Of a stretch of 32,000 nucleotides of DNA, positions 18,636-31,904 are shown piece after piece (within the stretch, counting starts at the first letter, position 1; every line of letters begins with the position of its first letter). A model generated the notes under the pieces. It made no database searches. It saw nothing but the letters and a program-made list of their open reading frames with translations, and had not been told where the DNA came from. The position numbers and the translations under genes are program-made. This DNA comes from Thermofilum pendens Hrk 5 (GTDB taxonomy: Archaea > Thermoproteota > Thermoprotei > Thermofilales > Thermofilaceae). The stretch is taken from positions 810,001 through 842,000 of the forward strand of contig NC_008698.1 in NCBI RefSeq assembly GCF_000015225.1, in the 5' to 3' direction.

Positions 18636-19760
18636 ATGCGGTTTAGGGAGGAATACGAGTACATATCGCTCATAAGGCCCGACTCGGTGACCGTTTGGGA
18701 GTACCCCGAGGTCAGGGAGAGGCTTTCACACTACCTCGGCGTGCTCAGGGGTGAGAAGCCGGCGCGCTACCGCGTTGCCAGAAGAATGCCCGTAGATTAC
18801 GATGAAAAGGCGCCCCTCGAGGAGCTTCTCGACGTGCATAGGAGCTACTCCAGAGATTTTGAAAAGGTTTACGCGGAGTCCGTGGAGAAGGGCTTGGAGA
18901 AGAATTTGCCGAGCAAGTCGTACCTCGACTTGAAGATCGAGATCGCAAAGAGAATGCTTCGTAGCTGCTTTTTCTGCGAGTGGCGTTGCATGGTGAACAG
19001 AGAGGAGGGCAAGAGGGGCGTCTGCGGGCTAGGCAAGGAGGTGCGTGTTGCTAGCGCTTTCCTCCATGTCGGGGAGGAGGCGCCGCTAGTACCGTCCGGG
19101 ACAATTTTCTTCACGGGTTGTAGCTTCAAGTGCGTGTATTGCCAGAACTGGGATATCTCCACCAGGGTTGATAACGGCGAGAAGGTTACTCCACAGGAGC
19201 TCGCAGGAATAGCCACCGCCCTGTACCTCAGGGGGGCCAGGAACATTAACTACGTGGGCGGGAACCCGGATCAGCAGCTCCACGTTATACTCGAGTCGTT
19301 GCGCTACATGGACGTAAATGTCCCACTGCTGTGGAACTCCAACATGTACATGTCGCAGGAGGCTCTATCACTGCTCCTAGACGTGGTGGACATATGGCTA
19401 CCGGACTTCAAGTACGGTAATGACGATTGCGCTAGGAGGCTCTCCGGGGTTCCAAGGTACTTCGAGGTTGTTTCGAGAAACCACAAAGTAGTCTGCGACG
19501 CAGGCAGAGACATAATCATCAGGCACCTGGTGCTCCCGTCGCACGTAGAGTGCTGCACCAAGCCCGTCCTGAAATGGATCTCGGAAAACTGTCCAAGAGC
19601 GCTTGTCAACGTGATGGACCAGTATAGGCCCGAGCACCTCGTGGCGAGGTTCCCACAAAGGTGGCCCGAGATAGCTAGGCGCCCAACCGCTAGCGAAATA
19701 AGAGAGGCCTACGAGTACGCGGATAGGCTGGGTCTAGCATGGAGGCCGGTCTCTCTGTAG
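18636..19760 (+). CDS. radical SAM protein, PflX-like (pyruvate formate-lyase activase homologue, COG1313-type)
   Basis: CSFKCVYCQNW is the CxxxCxxC radical SAM cluster motif. An upstream cysteine-rich region is CFFCEWRC...GVCG. ATG start. Confidence 0.7.
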   Translation: MRFREEYEYISLIRPDSVTVWEYPEVRERLSHYLGVLRGEKPARYRVARRMPVDYDEKAPLEELLDVHRSYSRDFEKVYAESVEKGLEKNLPSKSYLDLKIEIAKRMLRSCFFCEWRCMVNREEGKRGVCGLGKEVRVASAFLHVGEEAPLVPSGTIFFTGCSFKCVYCQNWDISTRVDNGEKVTPQELAGIATALYLRGARNINYVGGNPDQQLHVILESLRYMDVNVPLLWNSNMYMSQEALSLLLDVVDIWLPDFKYGNDDCARRLSGVPRYFEVVSRNHKVVCDAGRDIIIRHLVLPSHVECCTKPVLKWISENCPRALVNVMDQYRPEHLVARFPQRWPEIARRPTASEIREAYEYADRLGLAWRPVSL

Positions 19761-20761
19761 GCGGCTACGAGGTGGACCTGCGCCCCGTCCGAGAGATCAG
19801 GAAGCTGGGGGCGCGCAGAGTTCTACTTCAGGCTCCCGACGGGCTCAAACACGTCGCCAGAGAGCTGGCGGCAAGGCTTGCCGCTGACGGCGTCGAAGCA
19901 TACGTTTCGGGCGGGCACGCTTGGGGAGGGTGCGACGTAGCCTTGCAGGAAGCTCGGGCAATCAACGCCGACGCGATACTGCACTTAGGGCACCACGGCT
20001 TCGTGGGCGCTAGGGTGGACGCGCCCCCTGTCATCTTCGTGCCTGTCTACTACGAGGGTTTGCTTTTCGAAACCTTCGAGAAAGTCGTGAGGAACGTAGC
20101 CCTCAAGGGGTACAGGAGGGTAACTATAGGCACGACTTACCAGCACGCGAAGTACTTCTCCAGGCTCGTGAGGCTCGCCGAGGATGCCGGGCTAACGGTT
20201 GCAGGGAGGCACCTCGACGGGTACCTTGGGCTGGTAGTCGGGTGCAACTATGCGGCACTCGCCGAGGACGCTGAGGCCGTGATCGTAGTGGCTGGCGGCG
20301 TCTTCCACGCTCTGGGAGCGGCGCTCTGGACCGGCGCGCCCACGTGGAGGGTAGATCCGTACACTGGGGACTACGGGCCCGTTGACGTAAAGCCGATTGT
20401 AGCCAGGAGGCTCAGAGACCTCTCCCGCGCCATAGAGGCTAGAAGCTTCCTAGTGGCGGTATCGTCAAAGACGGGCCAGAGGAGGCCGGAGATCGCGCGG
20501 AGAATCAGGGATCTCCTCGCGGAGCGCGGGCTGCGGGCTGAGCTCGCAGTGTTCGACGAGGTCACAAGAGAGGGTCTGCTCAACCTAGGCTCCTACGACG
20601 CCTACGTCAACACGGCTTGCCCGAGGCTCGCAGTCGATGACCCCGACTTATTTCCTGGGCCCGTGGTAAACCCAGGGGAACTTAAGTACGTCCTAAAGGG
20701 GAGCCTAGAGGGTTACTCGCCCCGGGATCTCTTCCGCTTCGACGTCCTGGCCCCGCCGTAG
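19739..20761 (+). CDS. dph2: 2-(3-amino-3-carboxypropyl)histidine synthase Dph2 (diphthamide biosynthesis)
   Basis: YEVDLRPVREIRKLGARRVLLQAPDGL, GGCDV, ADAILHLGH, LGLVVGCNY, GGVFHALG and NTACPRLAVDD parallel P. horikoshii Dph2 as I recall it. ATG start overlaps the radical SAM gene by 22 nt. Confidence 0.85.
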   Translation: MEAGLSVGGYEVDLRPVREIRKLGARRVLLQAPDGLKHVARELAARLAADGVEAYVSGGHAWGGCDVALQEARAINADAILHLGHHGFVGARVDAPPVIFVPVYYEGLLFETFEKVVRNVALKGYRRVTIGTTYQHAKYFSRLVRLAEDAGLTVAGRHLDGYLGLVVGCNYAALAEDAEAVIVVAGGVFHALGAALWTGAPTWRVDPYTGDYGPVDVKPIVARRLRDLSRAIEARSFLVAVSSKTGQRRPEIARRIRDLLAERGLRAELAVFDEVTREGLLNLGSYDAYVNTACPRLAVDDPDLFPGPVVNPGELKYVLKGSLEGYSPRDLFRFDVLAPP

Positions 20762-21588: not shown

Positions 21589-21695
21589 ACTAAGCAATCT
21601 CTCCACGCGAGCCTAAAAACTTGATCAAAGGCGACGGCGACTTATCTGGCGGTAAAGTAAATAAAAAGATGGGTGAAGTGGTTAAGGGGGTTGCA

Positions 21696-22832
21696 ATGTC
21701 GCTTCCGTTTACACCTGCTACTGAGAAGCAGAAGATGTTGCTGGGAGCTCTCGAAAGCCCGGACGTGGACCTAGTGGGGGTCTTCGGTCCCAGCGGTACG
21801 GGGAAAAGCTTCGTCGTGCTCCTCTACGGCCTCTCTGCGGTTCGGAGCGGGAAGTACAAGAGGATGGTGGTCGTAAAGCCTCTAGTAAGCCTCTCCAGGT
21901 CTAAGGTACTCGACTCCAGCGAGATGGGTAACCTCTTCTTCGAGATAGCCTCCTCCTACGTGGAAGACGTGGCCGGCGACTACGTAGACCTGAAGGAGCT
22001 TAGGGAGATGTTCGACCAGAGAAAGGTGGTGTTCGTCGACCCGGACTTCCTCGCAGGTAGGACTTTCGACAACAGCCTGGTCTTCCTGGACGACGTCCAG
22101 TACGCCTCGCCCGACCTCGTGACGGAGTGCATCATTAGAACCGGGAAGAACTCCAAGCTCGTAATAGCTGGTGACCCCATACTCCAGGCGCTCGAAGGAA
22201 AGACGAGAAACACTGCCGCTATAGCCCGGGAGTTGCTCCTCGGGGAGGAGAGGTCCCTCGTTATAAACATGGGTATAAACGACATAGTGAGGCCCGGCTC
22301 CAAGAGAGGCTTCAAGCTGGCGCTCGAGTCAAGGTTGAGGCGCAGGGCCCTCAGCGAAGAGGAGGAGAAGGTGAAAGCGATACTTCAAAGCCATGCCCCT
22401 GACGCCGACGTGGTGACCGTGGTCTGGCTAAAAGACCTGAAGGAAAAGTTCGGCGCGCACACAGCCCCCGATGTCCTGGCGGTCGCGAAGGAGAATACCC
22501 TGAGCAGGCTTATAGGGAAGAAGGGCGAAAGGATAAACAAGGCCCAGGAGGAGGCGGGGGTCCAGATAAGGGCTGTCGAGTTGACGCAGGATCTCGGGGA
22601 GATAGTGAAGGCAATACACCCAGTGGGGTGGATCAGGAAGCATATCACGAGCGTAGAGATAGAGGGCTCGGAGCTCGCCGTATACGTAAATCCCGACGAG
22701 TACGGAGCATTCGTAGGCAAACAAGGGTCCTACATCAGGTTCTTGGACGCCGCTGTACGGAGGCTTCTGGGGCTCGGGGTCAGGGGGAAGCACGCCGAGA
22801 AGACCGAGCAGCGAGGAGCAAAGAGGAAGTAA
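21696..22832 (+). CDS. PhoH-like ATPase with two C-terminal KH domains
   Basis: FTPATEKQKMLLGAL, Walker A GPSGTGKSF, VFLDDVQYASPD and IAGDPILQAL follow the PhoH motif order. The C-terminus carries KH GxxG loops LIGKKGERINK and FVGKQGSYIRF. ATG at 21696 lies ~33 nt downstream of AAATAAAAAG (21658-21667). The track start at 21621 is TTG. Confidence 0.75.
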   Translation: MSLPFTPATEKQKMLLGALESPDVDLVGVFGPSGTGKSFVVLLYGLSAVRSGKYKRMVVVKPLVSLSRSKVLDSSEMGNLFFEIASSYVEDVAGDYVDLKELREMFDQRKVVFVDPDFLAGRTFDNSLVFLDDVQYASPDLVTECIIRTGKNSKLVIAGDPILQALEGKTRNTAAIARELLLGEERSLVINMGINDIVRPGSKRGFKLALESRLRRRALSEEEEKVKAILQSHAPDADVVTVVWLKDLKEKFGAHTAPDVLAVAKENTLSRLIGKKGERINKAQEEAGVQIRAVELTQDLGEIVKAIHPVGWIRKHITSVEIEGSELAVYVNPDEYGAFVGKQGSYIRFLDAAVRRLLGLGVRGKHAEKTEQRGAKRK

Positions 22833-22838
22833 TGGGTA

Positions 22839-24734
22839 ATGAGCTACAAGGCAGTCATAGTAGCAGAGAAAAACTCTGTTGCGCGTGCAATAGCCAGCTT
22901 CCTAGGCGGGAGTAGCGTCCGGAGGTTCCGCGTCGAGAGGGTGCCTGCCTACGAGTTCCTCTGGGAGGGAGGAAAGCACCTATCCATAGGCGTGAGCGGG
23001 CACATACTTGACTTCGACTTCCCCGAGGAGTATAACAAGTGGGAGAGCGTCGACCCCCGGGTACTCTTCTTCACGAACCCCGTGCTCGTCACTCGGGAAG
23101 GCGCGTACATCTACGTCAGAGCCTTGAAGACTCTGGCCCGGCAGACGTCGACAGTGATACTCGCGCTTGACGCGGACGTCGAGGGCGAGGCGATAGCCTT
23201 CGAAGTGATGAGGATAATGAAGAGCGTGAACCCGGAGCTCGAGTTCCGTAGAGCGTGGTTCAGCGCGGTGACTAAAAGCGATATACTGGAGGCTTTCAGG
23301 AAGCTGAGGGAGCCGAACGAGAACCTGGCGAACAAGGCTTTTGCTAGGATGGTTGTAGACCTCACGATAGGTGCGAGCTTCACGCGTATACTCACTCTCT
23401 CGGCTAGGAGGAACGGCGGGGTAATGCCGAGGGGTAGCTTCCTGAGCTACGGGCCATGCCAGACGCCGGTCCTCTACCTGGTGGTTAAGAGGGAGCTCGA
23501 AAGGGAGCAGTTCAAGAAGAAGAAGTACTACGTCTTGAGGGTCAGGTTTAGGAGCCAGGAAGGCGTGTTCACGGCCTCCGCCACGTTCGAAGACCAGGAG
23601 AAAGCGAAGAGTGCTCTCGATAGCGTTAAGAGGACCGGCGTGGGGGTCGTTGTATCAGCGGAGTTCAACGCGGTAGAGGTGGAGCCCCCCGTTCCTCTGA
23701 ACACGGTGTACCTCGAGAGCAGGGCGAGCCTTTTCTTGAACCTCAGGCCCAAGGAAACTCTCTCGATAGCGGAGAAGCTTTACTCCTTCGGCTACATATC
23801 CTACCCGAGAACCGAGACCACAATCTACCCGCCGACGCTTAACCTGCGCGGAATAGCGTCCATGTTCACCAGGTGGGAGGACGCCGGCTGGTACGTAGCC
23901 AAGGTGCTTGCAAAAGGCTTCACGCCGACGCGGGGACGGGAAGACGACAAAGCCCACCCGCCCATCTACCCGACGAGGAGCGCGTCCCGCGAGGAGATAA
24001 CCAGAAGGTTCGGCGAGAAGGCGTGGAAAGTCTACGAGTACGTCGTCAGGCACTTCCTAGCAACGATCAGCGAGAACGCAGTAGTCGAGAGGCAGAGGGT
24101 AGTCGTGAAGGTGGGGGAGCTCTCCCTGCAGTCGGAGGGCCGAAAGCTGGTCTATGCTGGTTTCTACAACGTCTACAAGTACTCCGTCCCGAAGGACGAG
24201 CCCTTGCCGTACGTCGTGGAAGGAGAGGAAGTCGAAGTCGAGGATGCAAAAATCGAGGCGAGAACCACCCAGCCTCCACCCTACCTCAGCGAGTCTGAGC
24301 TACTCGCCCTGATGAAGAAGTACGGCATTGGTACGGATGCCACAATGCAGGAGCACATACACACCAACATAGAGAGGAGATACTTCGTAGTTAAGAACAA
24401 GCGGTGCATACCCACGCCTCTAGGCAGGACTCTCGCCCTGGCGCTCTACGAGACCGTCCCGGAGCTCGTACTACCAGAGGTGCGCGGCAAGATGGAAGCC
24501 TCACTCTCGAAGATAGCTACTGGCGAGAGAACCCCCGAGGAAGTCGTAAACGAGATGCGTAGCGAGTTCCTGGAGTACTACGACCGCCTAGTCGAGCGCA
24601 TAGACTACGTCTCCAAGAAGATAGTAGAGGGGCTGAAAATGGTCTTCCAGGACGAAAAGCAGCAAGCTCGAGCAGGCTCAGTGGGCGAAGAACGTTCGCG
24701 CTCCACGCGTACACACCGTAAAGGTAAAAAGTAG
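22839..24734 (+). CDS. topA: type IA DNA topoisomerase (topoisomerase III-like)
   Basis: Toprim N-terminus KAVIVAEKNSVARAIA...LALDADVEGEAIAFEV and active-site region GYISYPRTETT. 631 aa with a basic C-terminal tail and no obvious zinc fingers. ATG starts 6 nt after the PhoH-like stop. Confidence 0.9.
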   Translation: MSYKAVIVAEKNSVARAIASFLGGSSVRRFRVERVPAYEFLWEGGKHLSIGVSGHILDFDFPEEYNKWESVDPRVLFFTNPVLVTREGAYIYVRALKTLARQTSTVILALDADVEGEAIAFEVMRIMKSVNPELEFRRAWFSAVTKSDILEAFRKLREPNENLANKAFARMVVDLTIGASFTRILTLSARRNGGVMPRGSFLSYGPCQTPVLYLVVKRELEREQFKKKKYYVLRVRFRSQEGVFTASATFEDQEKAKSALDSVKRTGVGVVVSAEFNAVEVEPPVPLNTVYLESRASLFLNLRPKETLSIAEKLYSFGYISYPRTETTIYPPTLNLRGIASMFTRWEDAGWYVAKVLAKGFTPTRGREDDKAHPPIYPTRSASREEITRRFGEKAWKVYEYVVRHFLATISENAVVERQRVVVKVGELSLQSEGRKLVYAGFYNVYKYSVPKDEPLPYVVEGEEVEVEDAKIEARTTQPPPYLSESELLALMKKYGIGTDATMQEHIHTNIERRYFVVKNKRCIPTPLGRTLALALYETVPELVLPEVRGKMEASLSKIATGERTPEEVVNEMRSEFLEYYDRLVERIDYVSKKIVEGLKMVFQDEKQQARAGSVGEERSRSTRTHRKGKK

Positions 24735-24760
24735 ATACGCGGTCTATAGGGGAGAGCCTG

Positions 24761-25354
24761 GTGTCGGAGCACGCAAATACGTTCAACAGGAAGCTAGGAA
24801 GGACTTTGAGGTTCAAAGCGAAGTATATCGATATGTTGCTCAGCGGCGAGAAGGTAACGACGATAAGAAGGGGGATCGTCACGCCTACGAGGGACGAGGT
24901 TTTCCTGGAGAGCGATGGGAAGATATACGGCACGGCTAGAGTGAAGTCCGTCAGGTATACCAAGGTAAGTGAGCTAAACAGCGACGACGCCGTCCGGGAC
25001 GGCTTTGCGGATAAGGAGGATTTGAAGAAGGCCCTGAAGGAGATATACCCGGACCTCAAGGACGACGAGTGGGTGACAATAATATTCCTTGAAGACGTGA
25101 ACAGGTTCTCCAGCCCGCTCCCGCTCGAAGCGTTGCAGAGAGACATAGACTTCGAGAGAGCCTCCAGAATAGCGCAACTAGCGCTGGCGCACGGAGTGTT
25201 GAACGAGAAGCTCGCCAGGCAGGTTCTCGCTAGGGTCGCTCTCTCGGGCGACGTCAAGGACGCGGCGAGAAAGCTCGGAGTGGACGAAAACAAGGTGAAG
25301 ATAATACTTGCTAAAGCCGTGGAAGAGCTGAGAAAGAGGGGTGTAGAGGTTTGA
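24761..25354 (+). CDS. ASCH-domain protein (YqfB-like) with a C-terminal helical/HTH-like extension
   Basis: LRFKAKYIDMLLSGEKVTTIRRG...DLKKALKEIYPD...WVTIIFLE parallels E. coli YqfB (ILAGRKTITIR...ELKKVIADIYPG...YVIEFK) as I recall it. An extra ~85 aa contains DVKDAARKLGVDENKVKIILAKAVEELRK. GTG start. Confidence 0.65.
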   Translation: MSEHANTFNRKLGRTLRFKAKYIDMLLSGEKVTTIRRGIVTPTRDEVFLESDGKIYGTARVKSVRYTKVSELNSDDAVRDGFADKEDLKKALKEIYPDLKDDEWVTIIFLEDVNRFSSPLPLEALQRDIDFERASRIAQLALAHGVLNEKLARQVLARVALSGDVKDAARKLGVDENKVKIILAKAVEELRKRGVEV

Positions 25355-25959
25355 ACCGCGACTACGACCCGTGCGACGAGCTTTCCCTAGAGATCGTAGC
25401 CTCCGGTGAAGGCTACGAAGTAGCGCTGAAAGTCTCGAGACACCTGGCGGAAATCTGCCCGCGCATCGAGCAACTGGGAAGCCTCCTCGGAATGGCTAGG
25501 AGGAACCACGAGTTCACGAAGACTGTGGGAAGGTCTGAGCTGGCCCCTCTCTTATCGGAGCTTTCGAGGCTTCTCGGAGAGTTGTCGGAGGAATGCACAG
25601 TGCTACGGCCCGGGCTCAGCGTTGGAGGCCTGCTCCACGCTCTCGAAAAGCGCGGCTGGCTAGCCGAAGCCTCGGGCAACTCTGTCGAAACAAGGAGGGT
25701 GTTAGGGGAGGGGCGCGTACGGGTAGACGTGCGCTGCACAATTGTGTCCTCCTTCTTGGTAAGGGTACAGCTTCGAGTGAAGGTCCCGGTAGGCTCCGTC
25801 GCGGAGGGAGAAGAGGCGCGGCGCCGCTTCCTGCTGGCCGGCTACCGCGTGTCGTCGTCTTTCCCTGTGCTTACGGCGGAGAAGGAGCTCTTCCCCGTAT
25901 TTCTCTGCAACGTCGCGGAAGTCCTGGACAAAGAGATGGGAGAGATGGAGAGGATATGA
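25351..25959 (+). CDS. hypothetical protein (202 aa), translationally coupled on both sides
   Basis: TTG start overlaps the ASCH stop (TTGA), and its stop overlaps the DHH start (ATGA). No motif recognised. The composition looks protein-like rather than antisense R/S/P-rich. The first internal ATG is codon 48, so the start is uncertain. Confidence 0.5.
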   Translation: MNRDYDPCDELSLEIVASGEGYEVALKVSRHLAEICPRIEQLGSLLGMARRNHEFTKTVGRSELAPLLSELSRLLGELSEECTVLRPGLSVGGLLHALEKRGWLAEASGNSVETRRVLGEGRVRVDVRCTIVSSFLVRVQLRVKVPVGSVAEGEEARRRFLLAGYRVSSSFPVLTAEKELFPVFLCNVAEVLDKEMGEMERI

Positions 25960-26924
25960 GGATCTACGCCTTTGTACTCCACGGGGACCTTGATGGGCTC
26001 TCCGCTACAGCCACGGTTGCCGCCGCGTTGAAGCACGCGGAGAAGGACGCGGAGCTGAGGTTTTACTTCTCACAGCCCTACGAGCTGGACAAAGACCTAG
26101 CCCGCGTGGATCCCCGAGCGGAGGGCATCTACATAGTTGACCTAGCGATAGACGCGGACGTGTGGCCGAGGCTCAGCGCGGAGCTCGGCAAGCTTGTGGC
26201 GTCGAAGAGGGTGACTTGGATCGACCACCACCCTTCTACCATTGAGCGGGTCGAGGAGCTGAAGAGGATCGGGGTGGAAGCCATGCTGGCAGAGGCCGCG
26301 TCGGCGTCGACTATAGCTAGGAGCTTCCTGGACAGAGTCCCGGACCCCGCCTTCTTCGAGAAGATAATCACGATAGGAGAGGTTGCCGACAGGGCTGTGA
26401 GCGTAGCACGGGAGGACCCGCTCTTCCACTACGTCGAGGTTCTAAGCCTGGTCCTCGGGTACCGCGTGCGGGACGAGCAGATAAGGAGAAGGATACTCAG
26501 AGCCTGGATCACCGAGAGGGTAGTAGTCCCCGACGAAGTAGCAAAGGCCGCAAGTGAAGCGGAGAAGGTGTTTCAGGACCTCCTTAGGGAGGCGCGCCTC
26601 AGGGTAGTCTACCGCTCCGAGAAGGTTGTAGCCGTGGATATGAGGGACAAGAGGGTATACGGCTTCGCCGGCATGCTGGCATCCATCATCGCCAGCGAGG
26701 AGGGGAGGATCGCGTTGATTCTCAGCAGGGTCGGCGAGGCGGCACTCCTAACGCTGAGAGCACCTCCCGGGGCAAAGGGGAACCCGTCGAAGACTGCATG
26801 GGATGTGGCATCGCGATACGGGGGGTCGGGCGGCGGCCACGCAGGCGCTGCATCCTTCAAGGTTCCCGGGACCTACGCCGAGAAAGTTCTCGCGGAGATC
26901 GTACGTGCACTAGAAACTGGCTAA
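25956..26924 (+). CDS. DHH/DHHA1 family phosphoesterase (NrnA/RecJ-like)
   Basis: Motifs HGDLDGLSA (I), VDLAID (II), IDHHPS (III, DHH) and DHHA1 GGGGHAGAASF. ATG at 25956 (MRIYAF). I discard the upstream 121 codons of the track ORF because they are R/G-rich and overlap the previous gene in another frame. Confidence 0.8.
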   Translation: MRIYAFVLHGDLDGLSATATVAAALKHAEKDAELRFYFSQPYELDKDLARVDPRAEGIYIVDLAIDADVWPRLSAELGKLVASKRVTWIDHHPSTIERVEELKRIGVEAMLAEAASASTIARSFLDRVPDPAFFEKIITIGEVADRAVSVAREDPLFHYVEVLSLVLGYRVRDEQIRRRILRAWITERVVVPDEVAKAASEAEKVFQDLLREARLRVVYRSEKVVAVDMRDKRVYGFAGMLASIIASEEGRIALILSRVGEAALLTLRAPPGAKGNPSKTAWDVASRYGGSGGGHAGAASFKVPGTYAEKVLAEIVRALETG

Positions 26925-27451
26925 CTTAGAGTTACACGTTTAACCGCCGGGTGTTGCAGTATCTTCTCTATCACTTCCCCGGGAACGGGCTTGGAGACTA
27001 CGACGTAGAGTTTAGGCTCCCTGTATATGTTCGGGTCCTCCGCCACCACCTGGAGGATATTTATGCCCTTCTCGGCGAGGGCGGACGCTACCCACGCGAG
27101 TATCCCGGGCCTATCCTCGTGTATCTCGACCACTAAGCACCGGTAGCCAAGCACGCGTGCAACGGATACCAGCGAGGGTCCCGCGGGCCTCAGGTTGTAG
27201 AAGAACTCCCTCAGGTAGCTGTCCGAGAGTATGCGTTTAAGAGTCTCCAGCACAATCCTCCTATCGACCTGAGCTTCTTCCGCCACGGAGCTCACGGTGA
27301 CTTTCACTTTGTCCCCGATGTACAGCCCGTCTTCCCTTACGCTGATCCCGTACTTCAACAGTAGCCTAACTACGTTCATCCTTTTCTCCGACTTCACGAC
27401 TTCACTAACCCTTCTCCAAAAGCCCCCCTCCACGTGTACAAAAATGGACAT
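26921..27451 (-). CDS. ACT-domain regulatory protein (COG2150-like predicted amino-acid metabolism regulator)
   Basis: The C-terminal half, LVVEIHEDRPGILAWVASALAEKGINILQVVAED...YVVV, is an ACT fold pattern. The N-terminal ~90 aa (VVRLLLKYGISV...) is HTH-like. ATG lies 27 nt downstream of a minus-strand TTTTATTC box. Divergent from the TrpB2 gene. Confidence 0.6.
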   Translation of the reverse strand: MSIFVHVEGGFWRRVSEVVKSEKRMNVVRLLLKYGISVREDGLYIGDKVKVTVSSVAEEAQVDRRIVLETLKRILSDSYLREFFYNLRPAGPSLVSVARVLGYRCLVVEIHEDRPGILAWVASALAEKGINILQVVAEDPNIYREPKLYVVVSKPVPGEVIEKILQHPAVKRVTLS

Positions 27452-27498
27452 CGTGTATTAAAACGTGATATGTGAATAAAATTGGGAAAAACGCAATA

Positions 27499-27506
27499 TT
27501 TATATA
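27499..27506 (+). promoter_or_regulatory. TATA box of the TrpB2 gene
   Basis: TTTATATA is centred ~29 nt upstream of ATG 27532, inside an 80-nt very AT-rich divergent intergenic region. Confidence 0.6.
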
Positions 27507-27531
27507 CCATTATGATCATTTTTGACGAGTT

Positions 27532-29934: not shown

Positions 29935-30011
29935 CCAAGCGCGCTGGCAAAACGCTTAACGCGTAGGGCTGAAAAGAGAAAGCCATCGGGGAAAGTGCCA
30001 AGCGCGAGATT

Positions 30012-30215
30012 TTACGCTAGCCCTAGCCCCCTGAGCTCTTTGATGTCCTTCTCCAGCTCTCTCCAGTTTTTCGTCCTCTTCGACCTGCGGGGCGCTTCCC
30101 ACGGAGGCGAGGAACCCTTGATCGCGTCTAACGCTTCGACGAGGCGCGCCTCGTACAGCTCGTCGCCCTTAAGAGTGCTCGCCAGGATACGCGAGGGGGC
30201 GCTTATCGCCCGCAC
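30012..30215 (-). CDS. small hypothetical protein (67 aa), partner ORF of module copy B; possibly degenerate
   Basis: Shares LASTLKGDELYEARLVEALDAI and ELRGLGLA with the copy A ORF. Its central ~20 codons are read in a different frame: a 1-nt deletion followed by a 2-nt deletion relative to copy A. GTG start. The ATG equivalent to 14450 is present (complement of 30257-30259) but runs into a stop after 18 codons. Confidence 0.35.
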   Translation of the reverse strand: MRAISAPSRILASTLKGDELYEARLVEALDAIKGSSPPWEAPRRSKRTKNWRELEKDIKELRGLGLA

Positions 30216-30240
30216 GGTAACCCTCGAGCGCGCCCTCGCA

Positions 30241-30268
30241 GGGGCGCCCCCTCCACCATTTAAGGAAA
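30241..30268. promoter_or_regulatory. conserved divergent control region of module copy B (GGGGCGCCCC palindrome plus TTTAAGGA box)
   Basis: GGGGCGCCCC at 30241-30250 and TTTAAGGA at 30259-30266. These are equivalent to 14441-14468 in copy A, with one mismatch by eye over the 31-nt block. Confidence 0.45.
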
Positions 30269-30276
30269 GGTTAAGT

Positions 30277-31713
30277 ATGGTTGGAGAGAAGATGATGAGG
30301 AATGAAGAGGTCGAGAAGGTTGTTAGGGAGGAGGTTTGGAGGCGTGCGGCTTTAAGCCTCTACGCCACCAGAACAGAGGATAAGAGGAAAGCCAGGGGCG
30401 GGAAGAAGGGCGAGATACACTACCGCGGCCTGTATGACACTGTGAGCGAGGTTGACTGGGACTTCACTAGGTTCCTCATAAACGGGTACAGCGTCGTGCC
30501 GGACGAAGTCTACCCGAGGTTTCACCGCTTCATAGACATCGACGCGAGGAAGTACCTTCTACTGAACGACGACAGCAAGCCGAGAGAGGGAAGCGCTGTC
30601 GTAGAGCTACGCGATAGGCTACAAGCAATCGTCGACGCTACCGAAGACGGCCTCAAAGTTGAGAGACACGGCAGAGTCTGGCACGTTTACGTGCCCGGCG
30701 AAAACTGGTACGTAACTGTCTCGAGGCCCAACGCGAAGAGCTGGAGGGTGCGCGTACCACTGGAAGGCTTCTGGGTTGAATCGGAGTTTCCCAAGGTTCT
30801 AGTGAATACTCCGAGCGATGTTCTCAGAAGCCTGCAGAAAGGGTGGCTTCTCACAGATGTCACTCCGCCGCACGGGCGCATCAGCGACGTACATTTCAGC
30901 ACAACGCAGAGCTGGCAGTTGCCAGCGACGCTCGCCAGCTTCCCGGGAGAAGTCAGGCTCGGCGTCACGGCGGGCATTCTCGGCAGTACTAGGCTGAGCA
31001 TCCAGTGGCAGGCGCGCGTTGACGGTTACGAGGAGGAGCTGGGCTGGGCCTCCGAGCTCATCGGCGAGGTTAAACGTGCAGAGTTTCGTCAGCTCGTCGA
31101 GAGGTGTAAGGAGCTTAACGGTGACTCGGTGGCGCTGACGACCGCCTTCCTGGGGGACGGCGAGCTCGAATTCTTCCTAAAGCTTCGGGTGCTCTTCTTC
31201 AAGGTTGGACATGAAGACATCTACTTGCCGGCGGAAAGCGCTATAGCTAATGCCCGCTTAGCCGTGGAGAGAGCTAGCGAGTACGTGCGCTTTGTCTCGC
31301 TGGTAACTAAGTGTCCAAAGATTAAACACTTCCTCTTCGTCGGCTACGGATTGCCGCAGAAGAGAGGTAAGAAGGACGGCCAAAGAAATAACCCGTTCTA
31401 CGCCGAGGTGGCAGGGGCGCAGCTACACCTTGTCTACATCTCTACGAGGAACCACGTCTACGCTAGAATCGCAGTCGAAGCTGTGCCTTCGGGCTGGGTG
31501 GAGGAGGCACGCGCTCAAGGCTGGGACGTCCGAGTGGTTCGAATGGGTGGCAGGGAGTACTACCAGGTCACTCATGCTTCTTTGATGGAGCATGCCTGTC
31601 ACGACGAAGCACTGCGTATAACACTCCTCGCCTTCACGAAGTACAAGGCCGAGCGATACCCCAAGGCGCAAAGCCTCGTAGAACGCCTCGAAAAACTGGG
31701 GACAGAAGACTAA
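30277..31713 (+). CDS. conserved hypothetical protein, copy B of the duplicated ~480-aa family (function unknown)
   Basis: Homology to copy A begins at the conserved GTATG (ATG 30277, MVGEKMM). I reject the 94 upstream codons of track ORF 29995..31713 because copy A has no equivalent and they are antisense to the small ORF. Alternative starts are ATG 30292 and 30295. Confidence 0.8.
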   Translation: MVGEKMMRNEEVEKVVREEVWRRAALSLYATRTEDKRKARGGKKGEIHYRGLYDTVSEVDWDFTRFLINGYSVVPDEVYPRFHRFIDIDARKYLLLNDDSKPREGSAVVELRDRLQAIVDATEDGLKVERHGRVWHVYVPGENWYVTVSRPNAKSWRVRVPLEGFWVESEFPKVLVNTPSDVLRSLQKGWLLTDVTPPHGRISDVHFSTTQSWQLPATLASFPGEVRLGVTAGILGSTRLSIQWQARVDGYEEELGWASELIGEVKRAEFRQLVERCKELNGDSVALTTAFLGDGELEFFLKLRVLFFKVGHEDIYLPAESAIANARLAVERASEYVRFVSLVTKCPKIKHFLFVGYGLPQKRGKKDGQRNNPFYAEVAGAQLHLVYISTRNHVYARIAVEAVPSGWVEEARAQGWDVRVVRMGGREYYQVTHASLMEHACHDEALRITLLAFTKYKAERYPKAQSLVERLEKLGTED

Positions 31714-31811: not shown

Positions 31812-31904
31812 GCCCCGGTAGCTCAGTTGGAAGAGCGCCGCTCTGGTAACTAGCCCTGGCTGGAAAGGCGGAGGTCCCGGGTTCAATCCCCGGCCGGGGC
31901 TCCA
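31812..31904 (+). tRNA. tRNA-Thr (anticodon GGU) with a 17-nt intron at the canonical 37/38 position; CCA encoded
   Basis: Hand-folded. Acceptor GCCCCGG/CCGGGGC, D arm GCTC-AGTTGGAA-GAGC, anticodon stem CCGCT/GGCGG (one G-U pair), loop CTGGTA|A, variable loop AGGTC, T arm CCGGG-TTCAATC-CCCGG, discriminator T, then CCA. The total of 93 nt equals 76 plus 17. Confidence 0.85.
31849..31865 (+). other. tRNA intron (bulge-helix-bulge substrate)
   Basis: The intron is ACTAGCCCTGGCTGGAA. Positions 32-35 (CUGG) can pair with intron CUGG (31860-31863: C-G, U-G, G-U, G-C) to form the 4-bp helix. That helix is flanked by the 3-nt bulges UA|A and AA|A, which carry the two splice sites. Confidence 0.7.

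What the first reader, a model, noticed from the sequence alone, without database searches (positions are those of the whole stretch)
21696..26924. Tightly coupled five-gene array: PhoH-KH ATPase, topoisomerase III, YqfB-like ASCH protein, unknown protein, DHH/DHHA1 phosphoesterase
- **Arrangement:** five co-directional genes have junctions of a 6-nt gap, a 26-nt gap, a 4-nt overlap (TTGA) and a 4-nt overlap (ATGA). The only obvious TATA-like box lies upstream of the first gene. They therefore look co-transcribed and partly translationally coupled.
- **RNA link:** four products have nucleic-acid roles with an RNA flavour.
  - KH domains bind RNA or ssDNA.
  - Type IA topoisomerase III enzymes have reported RNA topoisomerase activity.
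  - The ASCH domain resembles E. coli YqfB, a family that includes N4-acetylcytidine amidohydrolase.
  - DHH/DHHA1 proteins of this size include nanoRNases (NrnA).
- **Status:** I do not recognise this as a described operon. It could be an RNA (or ssDNA) unlinking and turnover module built around Topo III.
- **Caveat:** the functional link is inference from gene order only.
Basis: partly seen in the sequence, partly recalled or inferred. Interest (0 to 1): 0.65.

Follow-up and report, generated by a model that had tools for sequence, protein, structure and literature searches.

The report
PhoH-KH ATPase–topoisomerase III gene pair
In one family of heat-loving archaea (Thermofilaceae), the gene for topoisomerase III always sits directly behind a gene for an ATPase that binds single-stranded nucleic acid, which hints at an undescribed motor–topoisomerase partnership, while the other three genes of the five-gene array are only loosely attached.

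Summary
Gene 4 is a real but fast-evolving protein family.

Comparison with 103 related loci shows three modules, not one fixed five-gene operon.
- **PhoH-KH to Topo III pair.** It is invariant across Thermofilaceae: 35 of 35 testable loci, forming a single clade. Gaps are mostly -4 to +15 nt. The flanking genes change, and Topo III has no promoter-like box of its own.
- **ASCH gene.** It usually follows Topo III, but more often on the opposite strand than on the same strand.
- **Gene 4 to DHH pair.**

Outside Thermofilaceae both PhoH-KH and Topo III exist but are never adjacent (0 of 31 PhoH-KH loci; 0 of 12 Topo III loci). These lineages include Desulfurococcaceae, Sulfolobales, Thermocladium, Vulcanisaeta, Pyrobaculum and Methanomethylicia.

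A second AT-rich box lies inside the 3' end of the Topo III gene, in front of ASCH. This suggests two transcription units.

The closer assignments fail the curated NCBIfam cut-offs (YqfB, archaeal RecJ) or rest on fold similarity alone (NrnA).

My best reading is that the ATPase with its KH domains prepares or holds single strands for the type IA topoisomerase. This is inference from gene order only, and whether the substrate is DNA or RNA is open.

Interest is moderate: the pairing is undescribed in the literature I could search, but it is confined to one family.

The parts
21653..21670 (+). A/T-rich TATA-like box (TAAAGTAAATAAAAAGAT). Candidate promoter P1 for the PhoH-KH / Topo III unit.
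   Evidence: Seen in the sequence. It lies 26-43 nt before the ATG at 21696. A box at the same relative position occurs in 23 of 33 distinct related loci, against 5 of 33 upstream of Topo III (Fisher p = 1.4e-5). Promoter function is inferred, not shown.
21696..22832 (+). PhoH-family P-loop ATPase (aa 6-206) fused to a NusA-like tandem of KH domains (about aa 260-360) with a basic C-terminal tail. 378 aa.
   Evidence: - Pfam: PhoH 121 bits (cut-off 27), KH_1 29.1 bits, KH_2 26.9 bits.
- Walker A (GPSGTGKS) and Walker B (FLDDVQ) are invariant in 8 orthologues.
- Profile against PDB: 3b85 PhoH 1.8e-20; 2cxc archaeal NusA KH pair 1.8e-7.
- Orthologues across Thermoproteota are annotated only as 'PhoH family protein'.
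22839..24734 (+). Type IA DNA topoisomerase (archaeal Topo III), 631 aa. Toprim plus topoisomerase core, with a Lys/Arg-rich tail and no zinc-finger domain.
   Evidence: - Pfam: Topoisom_bac 386 bits, Toprim 49.6 bits.
- Invariant in 15 orthologues: E10, D111/D113/E115, and Y322 within GYISYPRTET.
- PDB phmmer: human TOP3B 302 bits, TOP3A 290 bits, Sulfolobus Topo III 170 bits.
- It lies directly downstream of PhoH-KH in 35 of 35 testable Thermofilaceae loci.
24725..24733 (+). Second A/T-rich box (TAAAAAGTA) inside the 3' end of the Topo III gene. Candidate internal promoter P2 for ASCH, gene 4 and DHH.
   Evidence: It lies 28-36 nt before the ASCH GTG. Equivalent boxes, for example GGTTTATAAGCGC, occur in 7 of 8 distinct loci with a co-directional ASCH, against 5 of 33 before Topo3 (p = 2.5e-4). 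Background in the array's coding sequence is 6.8%. Only about 4-5 independent lineages contribute, so this is inferred.
24761..25354 (+). ASCH-domain protein (aa 16-111) with an 85-aa helical C-terminal extension that may be a helix-turn-helix. 197 aa.
   Evidence: - Pfam ASCH: 56.6 bits (cut-off 21.2).
- C-terminal region: weak Sigma70_r4_2 match, E = 0.02.
- The YqfB equivalog scores 20.3 bits against a cut-off of 93.
- Among the 90%-dereplicated clusters, the orthologue lies within two genes after Topo III in 13 of 17 fully testable ones, but on the same strand in only 3.
25351..25959 (+). Gene 4: a fast-evolving Thermofilaceae-specific protein family (202 aa) that always sits directly upstream of the DHH gene.
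   Evidence: - No Pfam, NCBIfam or PADLOC hit.
- Only 4 weak hits among 1.84 billion representative proteins.
- Positional homologues are 23-28% identical.
- The 221-aa gene between Topo3 and DHH in L016/L057/L058 belongs to the same family: hhalign probability 97%, E = 1e-10.
- AlphaFold2 model: pLDDT 88, pTM 0.82. No significant PDB fold match.
25956..26924 (+). Two-domain DHH/DHHA1 phosphoesterase, 322 aa, with a complete catalytic motif set.
   Evidence: - Pfam: DHHA1 26.2 bits (cut-off 25.9); DHH 24 bits (cut-off 28.1).
- Motifs H-x-D-L-D-G, D62, D90-H-H, D145 and GGSGGGH are invariant in 5 homologues.
- AlphaFold2 model: pLDDT 93.6.
- Foldseek top matches: M. thermautotrophicus RecJ-Cdc45 (E = 2e-14) and archaeal PAP phosphatase 8a8k (TM 0.64-0.67). 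Pfu RecJ, MjRecJ2, GdpP, PggH and NrnA follow.

Best explanation
**What it is.** This is a gene neighbourhood specific to the family Thermofilaceae. It is built from three modules, not one obligate five-gene operon.

**Module 1: PhoH-KH ATPase followed by topoisomerase III.** This is the invariant core.
- The two genes are read from one promoter in front of the ATPase gene.
- They are translationally coupled.
- I think the most likely function is a motor/adaptor-topoisomerase partnership:
  - The NusA-like KH tandem holds single-stranded nucleic acid.
  - The PhoH P-loop domain uses ATP to open or remodel it.
  - This gives the type IA topoisomerase the single-stranded segment it needs for strand passage.
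- This would be analogous to RecQ/Hel112 with Topo III, to the helicase half of reverse gyrase, or to the KH and Tudor adaptors of TOP3B.

**Module 2: ASCH.** This is a nucleic-acid-binding or hydrolase accessory gene. It stays beside Topo III but in either orientation.

**Module 3: gene 4 plus DHH/DHHA1.** This is an active phosphoesterase with a lineage-specific partner protein. It probably removes short single-stranded oligonucleotides or nucleoside bisphosphates.

**In this genome** all three modules point the same way and are packed tightly. They are probably read from two promoters: P1 at 21653-21670 and P2 at 24725-24733.

**Shown:**
- gene anatomy and domains;
- intact catalytic motifs;
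- the pattern of conservation and its phylogenetic limits;
- the distribution of promoter-like boxes.

**Inferred:**
- co-transcription;
- any physical or functional coupling of PhoH-KH with Topo III;
- the substrate (DNA versus RNA);
- the roles of ASCH, gene 4 and DHH.

**Confidence.** The figure of 0.45 refers to the functional partnership of PhoH-KH and Topo III. For the modular anatomy my confidence is about 0.85.
For: **Pair conservation.**
- In a neighbour-joining tree of 74 PhoH-KH proteins, the Topo III-linked ones form one clade.
- In that clade 35 of 35 testable loci have Topo III immediately downstream. Outside it the count is 0 of 31.
- Gaps are -4, -1 or 1-15 nt in most loci.

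**Pair kept while flanks change.** Among 21 clusters dereplicated at 90% identity:
- at least 9 different genes lie upstream of the pair;
- 6 kinds of gene follow Topo III: ASCH on the minus strand, Sua5, ASCH on the plus strand, XPF, DHH and gene 4.

**Promoter-like boxes.** A box precedes PhoH-KH in 23 of 33 loci but Topo III in only 5 of 33 (p = 1.4e-5).

**Both enzymes look active.**
- Walker A and B are invariant in PhoH-KH.
- The Toprim acidic residues and the catalytic tyrosine are invariant in Topo III.

**Single-strand binding.** The C-terminal half of PhoH-KH matches the archaeal NusA KH pair.

**Established knowledge.**
- Type IA enzymes need single-stranded regions.
- They work with RecQ-family helicases, including Hel112 in Sulfolobus.
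- Reverse gyrase fuses a helicase-like domain to a type IA core.
- All three points are from review PMC11894792, read.

**Modularity of the remaining genes.**
- ASCH orientation flips between lineages.
- An AT-rich box precedes a co-directional ASCH in 7 of 8 loci.
- Gene 4 homologues always abut DHH.
Against: - **Restricted range.** The linkage exists in one family only. Every other sampled Thermoproteota lineage keeps both genes apart. So the partnership is either not general or does not need adjacency.
- **No sign of co-adaptation.** Linked and unlinked orthologues show no clade-specific insertions or diagnostic residues.
- **Not a proven helicase.** PhoH has a single RecA-like domain. Helicase activity is documented only for bacterial PIN-PhoH2 proteins, and on RNA (my own knowledge of Andrews and Arcus; PhoH2 is mentioned in PMC5499597, listed).
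- **No fusions found.** None appeared among the 120 best Topo III homologues listed.
- **Operons can be functionally mixed.** Archaeal operons often combine unrelated housekeeping genes.
- **No experimental data.** No interaction, expression or biochemical evidence exists. Literature searches found nothing on crenarchaeal PhoH-KH.
Confidence: 0.45

Rival explanations
1. **Expression convenience without a shared pathway.** In the Thermofilaceae ancestor the Topo III gene lost its own promoter and became dependent on the upstream PhoH-KH promoter. The adjacency is now kept because breaking it would silence an important gene. The two products work in unrelated processes. ASCH, gene 4 and DHH are simply neighbours in a slowly rearranging region.
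For: - The linkage arose once and is confined to one family.
- Both genes are conserved separately in all other lineages sampled.
- There are no co-adaptive sequence changes.
- A larger block is also syntenic in the nearest relatives: radical SAM, Dph2, AP endonuclease 2, the array, an ACT regulator, TrpB2 and a GHMP kinase. So part of the conservation is plain synteny.
- The neighbours of PhoH-KH elsewhere are heterogeneous.
Against: - The pair survives at least 9 different upstream and 6 downstream rearrangements without a single break in 35 loci.
- The stop/start overlaps (-4, -1) are kept. This is more than promoter sharing requires.
- A P-loop ATPase that binds single strands is the kind of partner type IA enzymes are known to use (PMC11894792).
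Confidence: 0.35
2. **The first reader's model.** All five genes form one co-transcribed RNA (or ssDNA) unlinking-and-turnover machine. PhoH-KH unwinds RNA. Topo III passes RNA strands. ASCH removes N4-acetylcytidine. DHH acts as a nanoRNase.
For: - **Arrangement.** All five genes are co-directional with gaps of 26 nt or less in the window and in the Thermofilum pendens-like group.
- **KH domains.** The tandem resembles RNA-binding NusA.
- **PhoH relatives.** The ones that have been studied act on RNA (own knowledge).
- **Topo III.** Type IA Topo III enzymes can act on RNA (PMC11894792; PMC11743793, listed). This Topo III is closest in sequence to human TOP3B.
- **DHH fold.** It matches PAP phosphatase and NrnA among others.
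- **Other neighbours.** Sua5 and wyosine-pathway genes occur near family members.
Against: - **ASCH position.** It is on the opposite strand in most lineages and absent in some.
- **Internal promoter.** A promoter-like box lies before ASCH.
- **Family assignments.** YqfB membership fails (20.3 against 93 bits). There is no NrnA family hit, and the DHH fold is equally close to RecJ-type DNA nucleases.
- **TOP3A similarity.** TOP3A, a DNA enzyme, scores almost the same as TOP3B: 290 against 302 bits.
- **DNA-side neighbours.**
  - PCNA lies upstream of PhoH-KH in Desulfurococcaceae.
  - XPF lies downstream in Infirmifilum and in L090.
  - An endonuclease III-type glycosylase lies near PhoH-KH in other lineages, and an endonuclease IV-like (AP_endonuc_2) gene is the divergent upstream neighbour in the window.
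Confidence: 0.12
3. **DNA repair or replication module.** PhoH-KH with Topo III resolves replication or recombination intermediates (hemicatenanes, precatenanes, double Holliday junctions). DHH acts as a RecJ-like ssDNA exonuclease, helped by gene 4.
For: - Archaeal Topo III is a decatenase linked to chromosome segregation (PMC5778498, listed; PMC11894792).
- DNA-metabolism genes lie near family members in several lineages:
  - PCNA;
  - XPF;
  - a NERD/Hjc-like nuclease;
  - an endonuclease III-type glycosylase (HhH-GPD);
  - an endonuclease IV-like (AP_endonuc_2) gene.
- The best sequence and fold matches of DHH are archaeal RecJ-Cdc45 proteins.
- Gene 4 has a local fold match to RecJ-Cdc45: 80 columns, probability 0.99 but E = 0.1.
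Against: - None of these neighbours is consistently present.
- The DHH protein lacks the extra domains of RecJ and GAN. It scores far below their family cut-offs: 29.5 against 360, and 17.7 against 850.
- The KH tandem and the PhoH family lean towards RNA.
- This model overlaps with the best explanation and differs only in fixing the substrate as DNA.
Confidence: 0.25
4. **Mobile element or anti-virus defence island.** The array would carry a Toprim/topoisomerase gene, an ATPase and a nuclease.
For: Superficially, the combination of ATPase, Toprim and phosphoesterase resembles some defence systems. There is a weak PADLOC hit of the Topo III core to DpdF.
Against: - **Composition.** It is uniform across the window.
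- **Mobility genes.** Pfam and NCBIfam scans of the five genes and six neighbours found no integrase or transposase, and no repeat search was run.
- **Conservation.** The genes are single-copy housekeeping orthologues, conserved in position across a family.
- **Defence families.** PADLOC gives no system-level match.
Confidence: 0.02

Closest known systems
RecQ-family helicase with topoisomerase III (bacterial RecQ-TopB, eukaryotic BLM/Sgs1-TOP3A-RMI, Sulfolobus Hel112-SsTop3)
   Same: A type IA topoisomerase of the Topo III class is paired with a separate P-loop NTPase that binds nucleic acid and could expose single strands. The partnership is needed because type IA enzymes act on single-stranded segments (PMC11894792).
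   Different: - The partner here is a PhoH-family ATPase with one RecA-like domain plus KH domains, not an SF2 RecQ helicase.
- The link here is genomic (a coupled bicistron) and has not been shown biochemically. I know of no report that the known pairs are encoded as operons.
- It is limited to Thermofilaceae.
Reverse gyrase (helicase-like domain fused to a type IA topoisomerase)
   Same: An ATPase module and a type IA core are made in fixed stoichiometry. Here this would come from translational coupling instead of fusion.
   Different: - There is no fusion.
- The ATPase is a PhoH type, not SF2.
- The Topo III matches the NCBIfam reverse gyrase model only through its shared topoisomerase core (169.7 bits against a cut-off of 471.7).
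TOP3B-TDRD3-FMRP RNA topoisomerase complex of animals
   Same: - The Topo III here is closest in sequence to TOP3B among solved structures (302 bits).
- Its genomic partner carries KH domains, as FMRP does.
- RNA is a possible substrate.
   Different: - TOP3A scores almost as high (290 bits).
- There is no Tudor or OB adaptor.
- The KH protein here is also an ATPase.
- There is no evidence of ribosome or mRNA association.
Bacterial PhoH2 (PIN-PhoH RNA helicase/RNase) and YbeZ/PhoH next to YbeY
   Same: Same PhoH P-loop domain: Pfam 121 bits, PDB 3b85 at 1.8e-20. As in those systems, the ATPase is combined with a nucleic-acid-processing partner.
   Different: - There is no PIN domain.
- The PhoH2 model scores 33.8 bits against a cut-off of 680.
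- The KH tandem is C-terminal.
- The partner is a topoisomerase, not an RNase.
NrnA / PAP phosphatase / archaeal RecJ-like DHH phosphoesterases
   Same: Two-domain DHH-DHHA1 core of about 320 aa with the full motif set. Fold matches have TM scores of about 0.5-0.67.
   Different: - It scores far below the curated cut-off of the only DHH-type NCBIfam models it hits, the RecJ and GAN models.
- It is only 13-18% identical to the solved structures.
- It is always preceded by the gene 4 family, which has no counterpart in described DHH systems.

Membership tests
Type IA DNA topoisomerase (Topo III class) | Toprim domain plus topoisomerase IA core domains | tested here: met
   Pfam: Toprim 49.6 bits (cut-off 23.1); Topoisom_bac 386 bits (cut-off 35.1).
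Type IA DNA topoisomerase (Topo III class) | Catalytic tyrosine and Toprim acidic residues | tested here: met
   Y322 within GYISYPRTET, together with E10, D111, D113 and E115, is invariant in 15 orthologues.
Type IA DNA topoisomerase (Topo III class) | Passes NCBI's curated equivalog thresholds (archaeal topA / topB models) | tested here: not met
   The best model, PRK07220, scores 444 bits against a cut-off of 635. topA_arch scores 314 against 458. The protein is clearly a family member but lies below the equivalog thresholds.
Type IA DNA topoisomerase (Topo III class) | C-terminal zinc-finger domain as in Sulfolobus Topo III (10.1101/706986) | tested here: not met
   The C-terminal 60 residues contain no cysteine (translation). 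The match to PDB 6k8n ends at chain residue 591 of 668.
Type IA DNA topoisomerase (Topo III class) | Decatenase, relaxase or RNA strand-passage activity | not testable with these tools
   Needs biochemistry.
PhoH family P-loop ATPase | PhoH domain above the Pfam threshold, with Walker A and B motifs | tested here: met
   PhoH scores 121.2 bits (cut-off 27). GPSGTGKS and FLDDVQ are invariant. PDB 3b85 matches at 1.8e-20.
PhoH2 (PIN-PhoH RNA helicase) | N-terminal PIN domain and the equivalog score | tested here: not met
   The PhoH domain starts at residue 6, and there is no PIN hit. NF053827 scores 33.8 bits against a cut-off of 680.
KH-domain nucleic-acid-binding proteins | KH domain above the Pfam threshold | tested here: met
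   KH_1 scores 29.1 bits (cut-off 21.5) and KH_2 scores 26.9 bits (cut-off 22). The profile matches the NusA KH pair 2cxc over aa 261-360 at 1.8e-7.
ASCH domain superfamily | ASCH domain above the Pfam threshold | tested here: met
   56.6 bits (cut-off 21.2), aa 16-111.
YqfB / N4-acetylcytidine amidohydrolase | Equivalog score | tested here: not met
   NF003443 scores 20.3 bits against a cut-off of 93. There is no PDB sequence match.
YqfB / N4-acetylcytidine amidohydrolase | Single-domain protein of about 100 aa | tested here: not met
   The protein has 197 aa, with an extra C-terminal region of 85 aa.
DHH/DHHA1 phosphoesterase superfamily | DHH motifs I-IV and the DHHA1 GGGH motif; two-domain fold | tested here: met
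   All motifs are invariant. The AlphaFold2 model has pLDDT 93.6. Foldseek gives 76 PDB matches at E <= 0.001, and the listed top matches are all DHH-superfamily proteins. Pfam DHHA1 scores 26.2 bits (cut-off 25.9), while DHH scores 24 bits, below its cut-off of 28.1.
NrnA nanoRNase / pAp phosphatase | Family-level sequence match | tested here: inconclusive
   There is no NCBIfam NrnA hit. The fold resembles PAP phosphatase 8a8k (TM 0.64-0.67) and NrnA 5ipp (TM about 0.5), but no more closely than it resembles RecJ-type nucleases.
NrnA nanoRNase / pAp phosphatase | Activity on 2-5 nt RNA and on pAp | not testable with these tools
   Needs biochemistry.
Archaeal RecJ / GAN / Cdc45 | Equivalog score | tested here: not met
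   RecJ_archaeal scores 29.5 bits against 360. GAN scores 17.7 against 850. RecJ_Meth scores 16.1 against 550.
Archaeal RecJ / GAN / Cdc45 | Extra domains beyond the DHH-DHHA1 core (about 450 aa) | tested here: not met
   The protein has 322 aa, against about 430-470 aa for archaeal RecJ and GAN structures.
Single operon (one transcription unit of five genes) | Same strand with short or overlapping junctions | tested here: met
   Junctions are 6 nt, 26 nt, -4 and -4.
Single operon (one transcription unit of five genes) | No internal promoter | tested here: inconclusive
   A candidate TATA-like box lies at 24725-24733 before ASCH. It recurs in 7 of 8 related co-directional loci. No such box lies before Topo III, gene 4 (at a suitable distance) or DHH.
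Single operon (one transcription unit of five genes) | Gene order and orientation conserved across genomes | tested here: not met
   This holds only for PhoH-KH and Topo III (35 of 35) and for gene 4 and DHH. ASCH is inverted or absent in most lineages.
Single operon (one transcription unit of five genes) | One transcript observed | not testable with these tools
   No RNA-seq data are available here.
Helicase-topoisomerase IA partnership | Physical interaction and functional stimulation | not testable with these tools
   Only single-chain structure prediction is available, and there is no biochemistry.
Anti-phage defence system | Match to a known defence system | tested here: not met
   PADLOC gives only a generic match of the Topo core to DpdF and a 15-bit HamB hit.

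The most novel reading that the evidence does not exclude
PhoH-KH is the dedicated ATP-driven partner of archaeal topoisomerase III. The two would form a two-subunit machine: a 'split', non-SF2 counterpart of reverse gyrase or of RecQ-Top3. Alternatively it would be an archaeal forerunner of the KH-assisted TOP3B RNA topoisomerase complex. The Thermofilaceae operon would then be the genomic trace of a partnership that operates throughout Thermoproteota, where both genes are conserved. It would also give the widespread and uncharacterised archaeal 'PhoH family protein' its first function.
Probability: 0.15. Interest if true: 0.75.

Novelty: new variant of a known kind. Interest (0 to 1): 0.45.

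Why it matters
**Unassigned proteins.** PhoH-family ATPases are among the most widespread P-loop proteins without a settled function. The crenarchaeal PhoH-KH form is annotated only as 'PhoH family protein'.

**Missing partners.** The partners of archaeal Topo III are poorly known beyond Hel112 in Sulfolobus (PMC11894792).

**A testable hypothesis.** A strictly conserved, translationally coupled PhoH-KH / Topo III bicistron gives a concrete proposal. An ATPase with KH domains supplies or holds the single strand for a type IA topoisomerase. Two recombinant thermostable proteins would be enough to test it.

**Secondary leads.**
- Gene 4 and DHH form a conserved pair, and gene 4 has a confidently predicted fold with no match among solved structures.
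The unit under selection is the two-gene core, not the five-gene array, and an RNA role is not established.

Tried and rejected
- **Word-indexed homology search for gene 4.** It found only the window's own protein. A full HMMER scan of 1.84 billion representatives gave 4 weak hits. Homologues had to be recovered by position and confirmed by profile-profile comparison.
- **Same search for DHH.** It gave only 4 homologues, because of the candidate cap. More were found through the loci.
- **Genome scan with the Topo III alignment.** That was enough for the out-group test but is not a full survey.
- **Fold search of the gene 4 model against PDB.** No significant match was found. The LAGLIDADG hits have TM scores of about 0.2 and I reject them. 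The DR_1245 and RecJ-Cdc45 matches are local only.
- **PDB sequence search for ASCH.** It returned only noise.
- **Sigma-70 promoter and intrinsic terminator scan.** It is not applicable to archaea and gave nothing above the shuffled controls.
- **Search for residues or indels specific to the linked clade.** There were none in Topo3 and two conservative changes in PhoH-KH, so there is no sign of co-adaptation.
- **Defence-system hypothesis.** Rejected.
- **DHH as the inactive crenarchaeal Cdc45 homologue.** Rejected, because all catalytic motifs are intact. The second DHH paralogue also keeps them.
- **Literature searches linking PhoH to Topo III or to Crenarchaeota.** They found nothing relevant.
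- **Not tried.**

Full report
**1. What is in the window**

Five + strand ORFs occupy 21696-26924.
- TAA, then 6 nt, then ATG between genes 1 and 2.
- 26 nt between genes 2 and 3.
- A TTGA overlap between genes 3 and 4.
- An ATGA overlap between genes 4 and 5.

Pfam results:
- Gene 1: PhoH (121 bits) plus KH_1 and KH_2.
- Gene 2: Topoisom_bac (386 bits) plus Toprim.
- Gene 3: ASCH (56.6 bits, aa 16-111).
- Gene 4: nothing.
- Gene 5: weak DHHA1 and DHH.

NCBIfam adds no equivalog-level assignment:
- PhoH2 scores 33.8 bits against a cut-off of 680.
- YqfB / ac4C amidohydrolase scores 20.3 against 93.
- Archaeal RecJ scores 29.5 against 360.
- The best topoisomerase model scores 444 against 635.

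Flanking genes:
- Upstream: radical SAM, Dph2 and a divergent AP_endonuc_2 (endonuclease IV-like) gene.
- Downstream: a convergent TrpY-like ACT regulator, a TrpB2-like PLP enzyme and a GHMP kinase.

Base composition is even across the window. PADLOC finds no defence system.

The organism belongs to Thermofilaceae. Its Topo III is 62-74% identical to proteins from Infirmifilum, Thermofilum and related metagenome-assembled genomes.

**2. The individual proteins**

*PhoH-KH*
- Eight orthologues align over their full length, with invariant Walker A (GPSGTGKS) and Walker B (FLDDVQ) motifs.
- The alignment supports the ATG at 21696 as the start.
- Against PDB, the profile matches the PhoH structure 3b85 (1.8e-20, aa 5-200). 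It also matches the two KH domains of archaeal NusA, 2cxc (1.8e-7, aa 261-360).

*Topo III*
- The Toprim acidic residues and the catalytic tyrosine in GYISYPRTET are invariant.
- Among solved structures it is much closer to human TOP3B (302 bits) and TOP3A (290 bits) than to Sulfolobus Topo III (170 bits).
- It lacks the cysteine-rich C-terminal domain of the Sulfolobus enzyme.

*DHH*
- All DHH motifs and the GGGH motif are conserved.
- The AlphaFold2 model is confident, with pLDDT 93.6.
- It resembles several DHH subfamilies about equally:
  - M. thermautotrophicus RecJ-Cdc45;
  - an archaeal PAP phosphatase (TM 0.64-0.67);
  - P. furiosus RecJ and M. jannaschii RecJ2;
  - GdpP, PggH and NrnA.
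- The subfamily, and so the substrate, stays open.

*Gene 4*
- It has almost no detectable relatives.
- The genes in the same position in related loci do align with it at 23-28% identity.
- The 221-aa gene between Topo III and DHH in other Thermofilaceae belongs to the same family: hhalign probability 97%, E = 1e-10.
- Its model is confident (pLDDT 88, pTM 0.82) but has no significant match in the PDB.

**3. Is the arrangement conserved?**

I gathered related loci three ways:
- Contigs encoding DHH and Topo III homologues.
- A scan of one genome per species with a Topo III alignment (14 loci).
- A metagenome scan with the PhoH-KH alignment (80 loci).

ORFs in all 104 fetched loci (two of them short contigs identical in this region to the window) were searched with the window proteins and with family HMMs. 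They were then clustered.

Full-array conservation:
- The full five-gene order, with the same flanks, recurs in the Thermofilum pendens-like group (L003, L024, L029-L031, L037).
- In that group DHH is only about 39% identical to the window's.

The strictly conserved feature is narrower:
- In a neighbour-joining tree of 74 PhoH-KH proteins, those followed by Topo III form one clade.
- In that clade 35 of 35 testable loci have Topo III immediately downstream. In the remaining clades the count is 0 of 31.
- Gaps between the two genes are -4, -1 or 1-15 nt in most loci.

Within that clade the surroundings have been reshuffled. The 21 clusters dereplicated at 90% identity show:
- at least 9 different upstream neighbours;
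- six kinds of gene after Topo III: ASCH on the minus strand in 7, Sua5 in 4, ASCH on the plus strand in 3, XPF in 2, DHH in 1 and gene 4 in 1.

The unlinked PhoH-KH orthologues come from several lineages, all annotated simply as 'PhoH family protein':
- Thermogladius and other Desulfurococcaceae;
- Sulfolobales/Desulfurococcales;
- Thermocladium;
- Verstraetearchaeota/Methanomethylicia.

Conversely, Topo III loci from Thermoproteales, Pyrobaculum, Vulcanisaeta, Nezhaarchaeales and others have none of the four partners within 10 kb, even with HMMs.

The adjacency therefore arose once, in the Thermofilaceae lineage. It has been kept there without exception.

**4. The other three genes**

- ASCH lies within two genes of Topo III in about three quarters of the dereplicated Thermofilaceae clusters.
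- It is more often convergent (opposite strand, 8-11 nt from the Topo III stop or overlapping it) than co-directional.
- In some clusters a Sua5 gene separates it from Topo III.
- In Infirmifilum, ASCH, gene 4 and DHH are missing from the locus, and an XPF nuclease gene follows Topo III.
- Gene 4 homologues always directly precede DHH.
- The array is therefore modular: PhoH-KH with Topo III, then ASCH, then gene 4 with DHH.

**5. Transcription signals**

The bacterial-type scan is uninformative. I counted A/T-rich 8-mers (at least 7 of 8 A or T) starting 22-50 nt before the start codon.

| Position | Loci with a box |
|---|---|
| Before PhoH-KH | 23 of 33 |
| Before Topo III | 5 of 33 (p = 1.4e-5 against PhoH-KH) |
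| Before co-directional ASCH | 7 of 8 (p = 2.5e-4 against Topo III) |
| Background in the array's coding sequence | 6.8% |

- In the window the two boxes are 21653-21670 (TAAAGTAAATAAAAAGAT) and 24725-24733 (TAAAAAGTA). The second is 28-36 nt before the ASCH GTG.
- This fits two units: PhoH-KH with Topo III, and ASCH with gene 4 and DHH.
- The ASCH sample covers only about 4-5 independent lineages, and no transcript data are available. This remains inference.

**6. What it most likely does**

- Type IA topoisomerases need a single-stranded segment. They are known to work with helicases (RecQ in bacteria and eukaryotes, Hel112 in Sulfolobus) or to be fused to a helicase-like domain (reverse gyrase) (PMC11894792).
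- A P-loop ATPase carrying a single-strand-binding KH tandem, made from the same message in fixed proportion, is a plausible partner of this kind.
- I put the functional partnership at about 0.45.
- The main rival, at 0.35, is that Topo III merely became dependent on the upstream promoter in the family ancestor. Three points support it:
  - The link is confined to one family.
  - Linked and unlinked orthologues show no co-adaptive differences.
  - Part of the wider block is plainly syntenic.

**7. DNA or RNA?**

This cannot be settled here.

Pointing to RNA:
- The KH tandem is NusA-like.
- Studied PhoH relatives act on RNA (own knowledge).
- Topo III enzymes can act on RNA (PMC11894792).
- Sua5 and wyosine-pathway genes (Trm5/Tyw2, Tyw1) occur nearby in some lineages.

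Pointing to DNA:
- PCNA lies directly upstream of PhoH-KH, on the same strand, in Desulfurococcaceae.
- XPF lies downstream in Infirmifilum and in L090.
- Genes for an endonuclease III-type glycosylase, an endonuclease IV-like protein and a NERD/Hjc-like nuclease also occur nearby.
- Archaeal Topo III is a known decatenase (PMC5778498, listed).

**8. Novelty and verdict**

- Full-text searches found no paper linking PhoH to Topo III in archaea, and no study of crenarchaeal PhoH-KH.
- The pairing looks like a new variant of the known ATPase/helicase plus type IA topoisomerase theme. It is supported only by gene order and confined to one family.
- Its interpretation as a five-gene RNA unlinking and turnover operon is only partly supported.
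- Interest: 0.45.

Noticed in passing
window 22839-24734: By sequence, this crenarchaeal Topo III is far closer to human TOP3B (302 bits) and TOP3A (290 bits) than to the solved Sulfolobus solfataricus Topo III (170 bits). It also lacks that enzyme's C-terminal zinc-finger domain.
   Followed up: partly
window 25351-25959; L016:11925-12590; L058:4030-4692: The gene 4 family gives a confident AlphaFold2 model (pLDDT 88) built from two beta-beta-alpha-rich halves, yet it has no significant PDB fold match. The only local matches of high probability are DR_1245 (4h5b) and about 80 columns of M. thermautotrophicus RecJ-Cdc45 (7bih). That is curious, because gene 4 always precedes a DHH gene.
   Followed up: partly
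L063:5916-6650, L064, L066, L069, L080, L081, L085-L087: In Desulfurococcaceae-type contigs a PCNA gene lies on the same strand just upstream of the PhoH-KH orthologue. In several of these loci a small unknown gene (cluster c40, about 200 aa, no Pfam hit) lies between them.
   Followed up: partly
L023:9903-10646; L008:12140-12853; L090/L091: An ERCC4/XPF nuclease gene directly follows Topo III in Infirmifilum. In another lineage it follows PhoH-KH and an NAD-kinase-like gene. XPF is therefore associated with PhoH-KH in two different contexts.
   Followed up: no
L003:18269-19249; L006:7966-8889: A second DHH/DHHA1 paralogue, about 20% identical, lies 7 kb downstream of the array in a Thermofilum-like contig. 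In another lineage it lies directly next to the DHH orthologue. It also keeps all the catalytic motifs, so neither copy looks like the inactivated crenarchaeal Cdc45 homologue.
   Followed up: partly
window 18636-19760 and 19739-20761: A radical-SAM gene overlaps the start of the diphthamide synthesis gene Dph2 by 22 nt. The order radical SAM, Dph2, divergent AP endonuclease 2 is conserved in many Thermofilaceae loci.
   Followed up: no
window 24761-25354 (aa 112-197): The ASCH protein carries a conserved helical C-terminal extension of 85 aa. It has a weak helix-turn-helix signal (Sigma70_r4_2, E = 0.02). The L022/L025 orthologue is shorter, at 153-163 aa.
   Followed up: partly
L022:11765-13096; L041: An unknown protein of 425-478 aa (cluster c113, no Pfam hit) is inserted just upstream of DHH in L022/L025. 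It also appears after the inverted ASCH in L041.
   Followed up: no
window 31812-31904: A tRNA gene of about 90 nt. ARAGORN cannot assign the anticodon, which probably means it contains an intron. Rfam confirms a tRNA at 56 bits.
   Followed up: no
window 29995-31713: A 572-aa ORF downstream of the GHMP kinase has no Pfam family even at E <= 1.
   Followed up: no
window 26921-27531: A TrpY-like ACT-domain regulator (NCBIfam TrpY_fam 150 bits, below the cut-off of 180) is divergent from a TrpB2-like PLP enzyme. The 80-nt intergenic region between them is strongly A/T-rich and has several TATA-like boxes.
   Followed up: no
L019-L021 (Vulcanisaeta JCM draft genomes): The Topo III gene appears split into 2-3 ORFs in three draft assemblies. 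These are most likely sequencing frameshifts rather than real pseudogenes.
   Followed up: no
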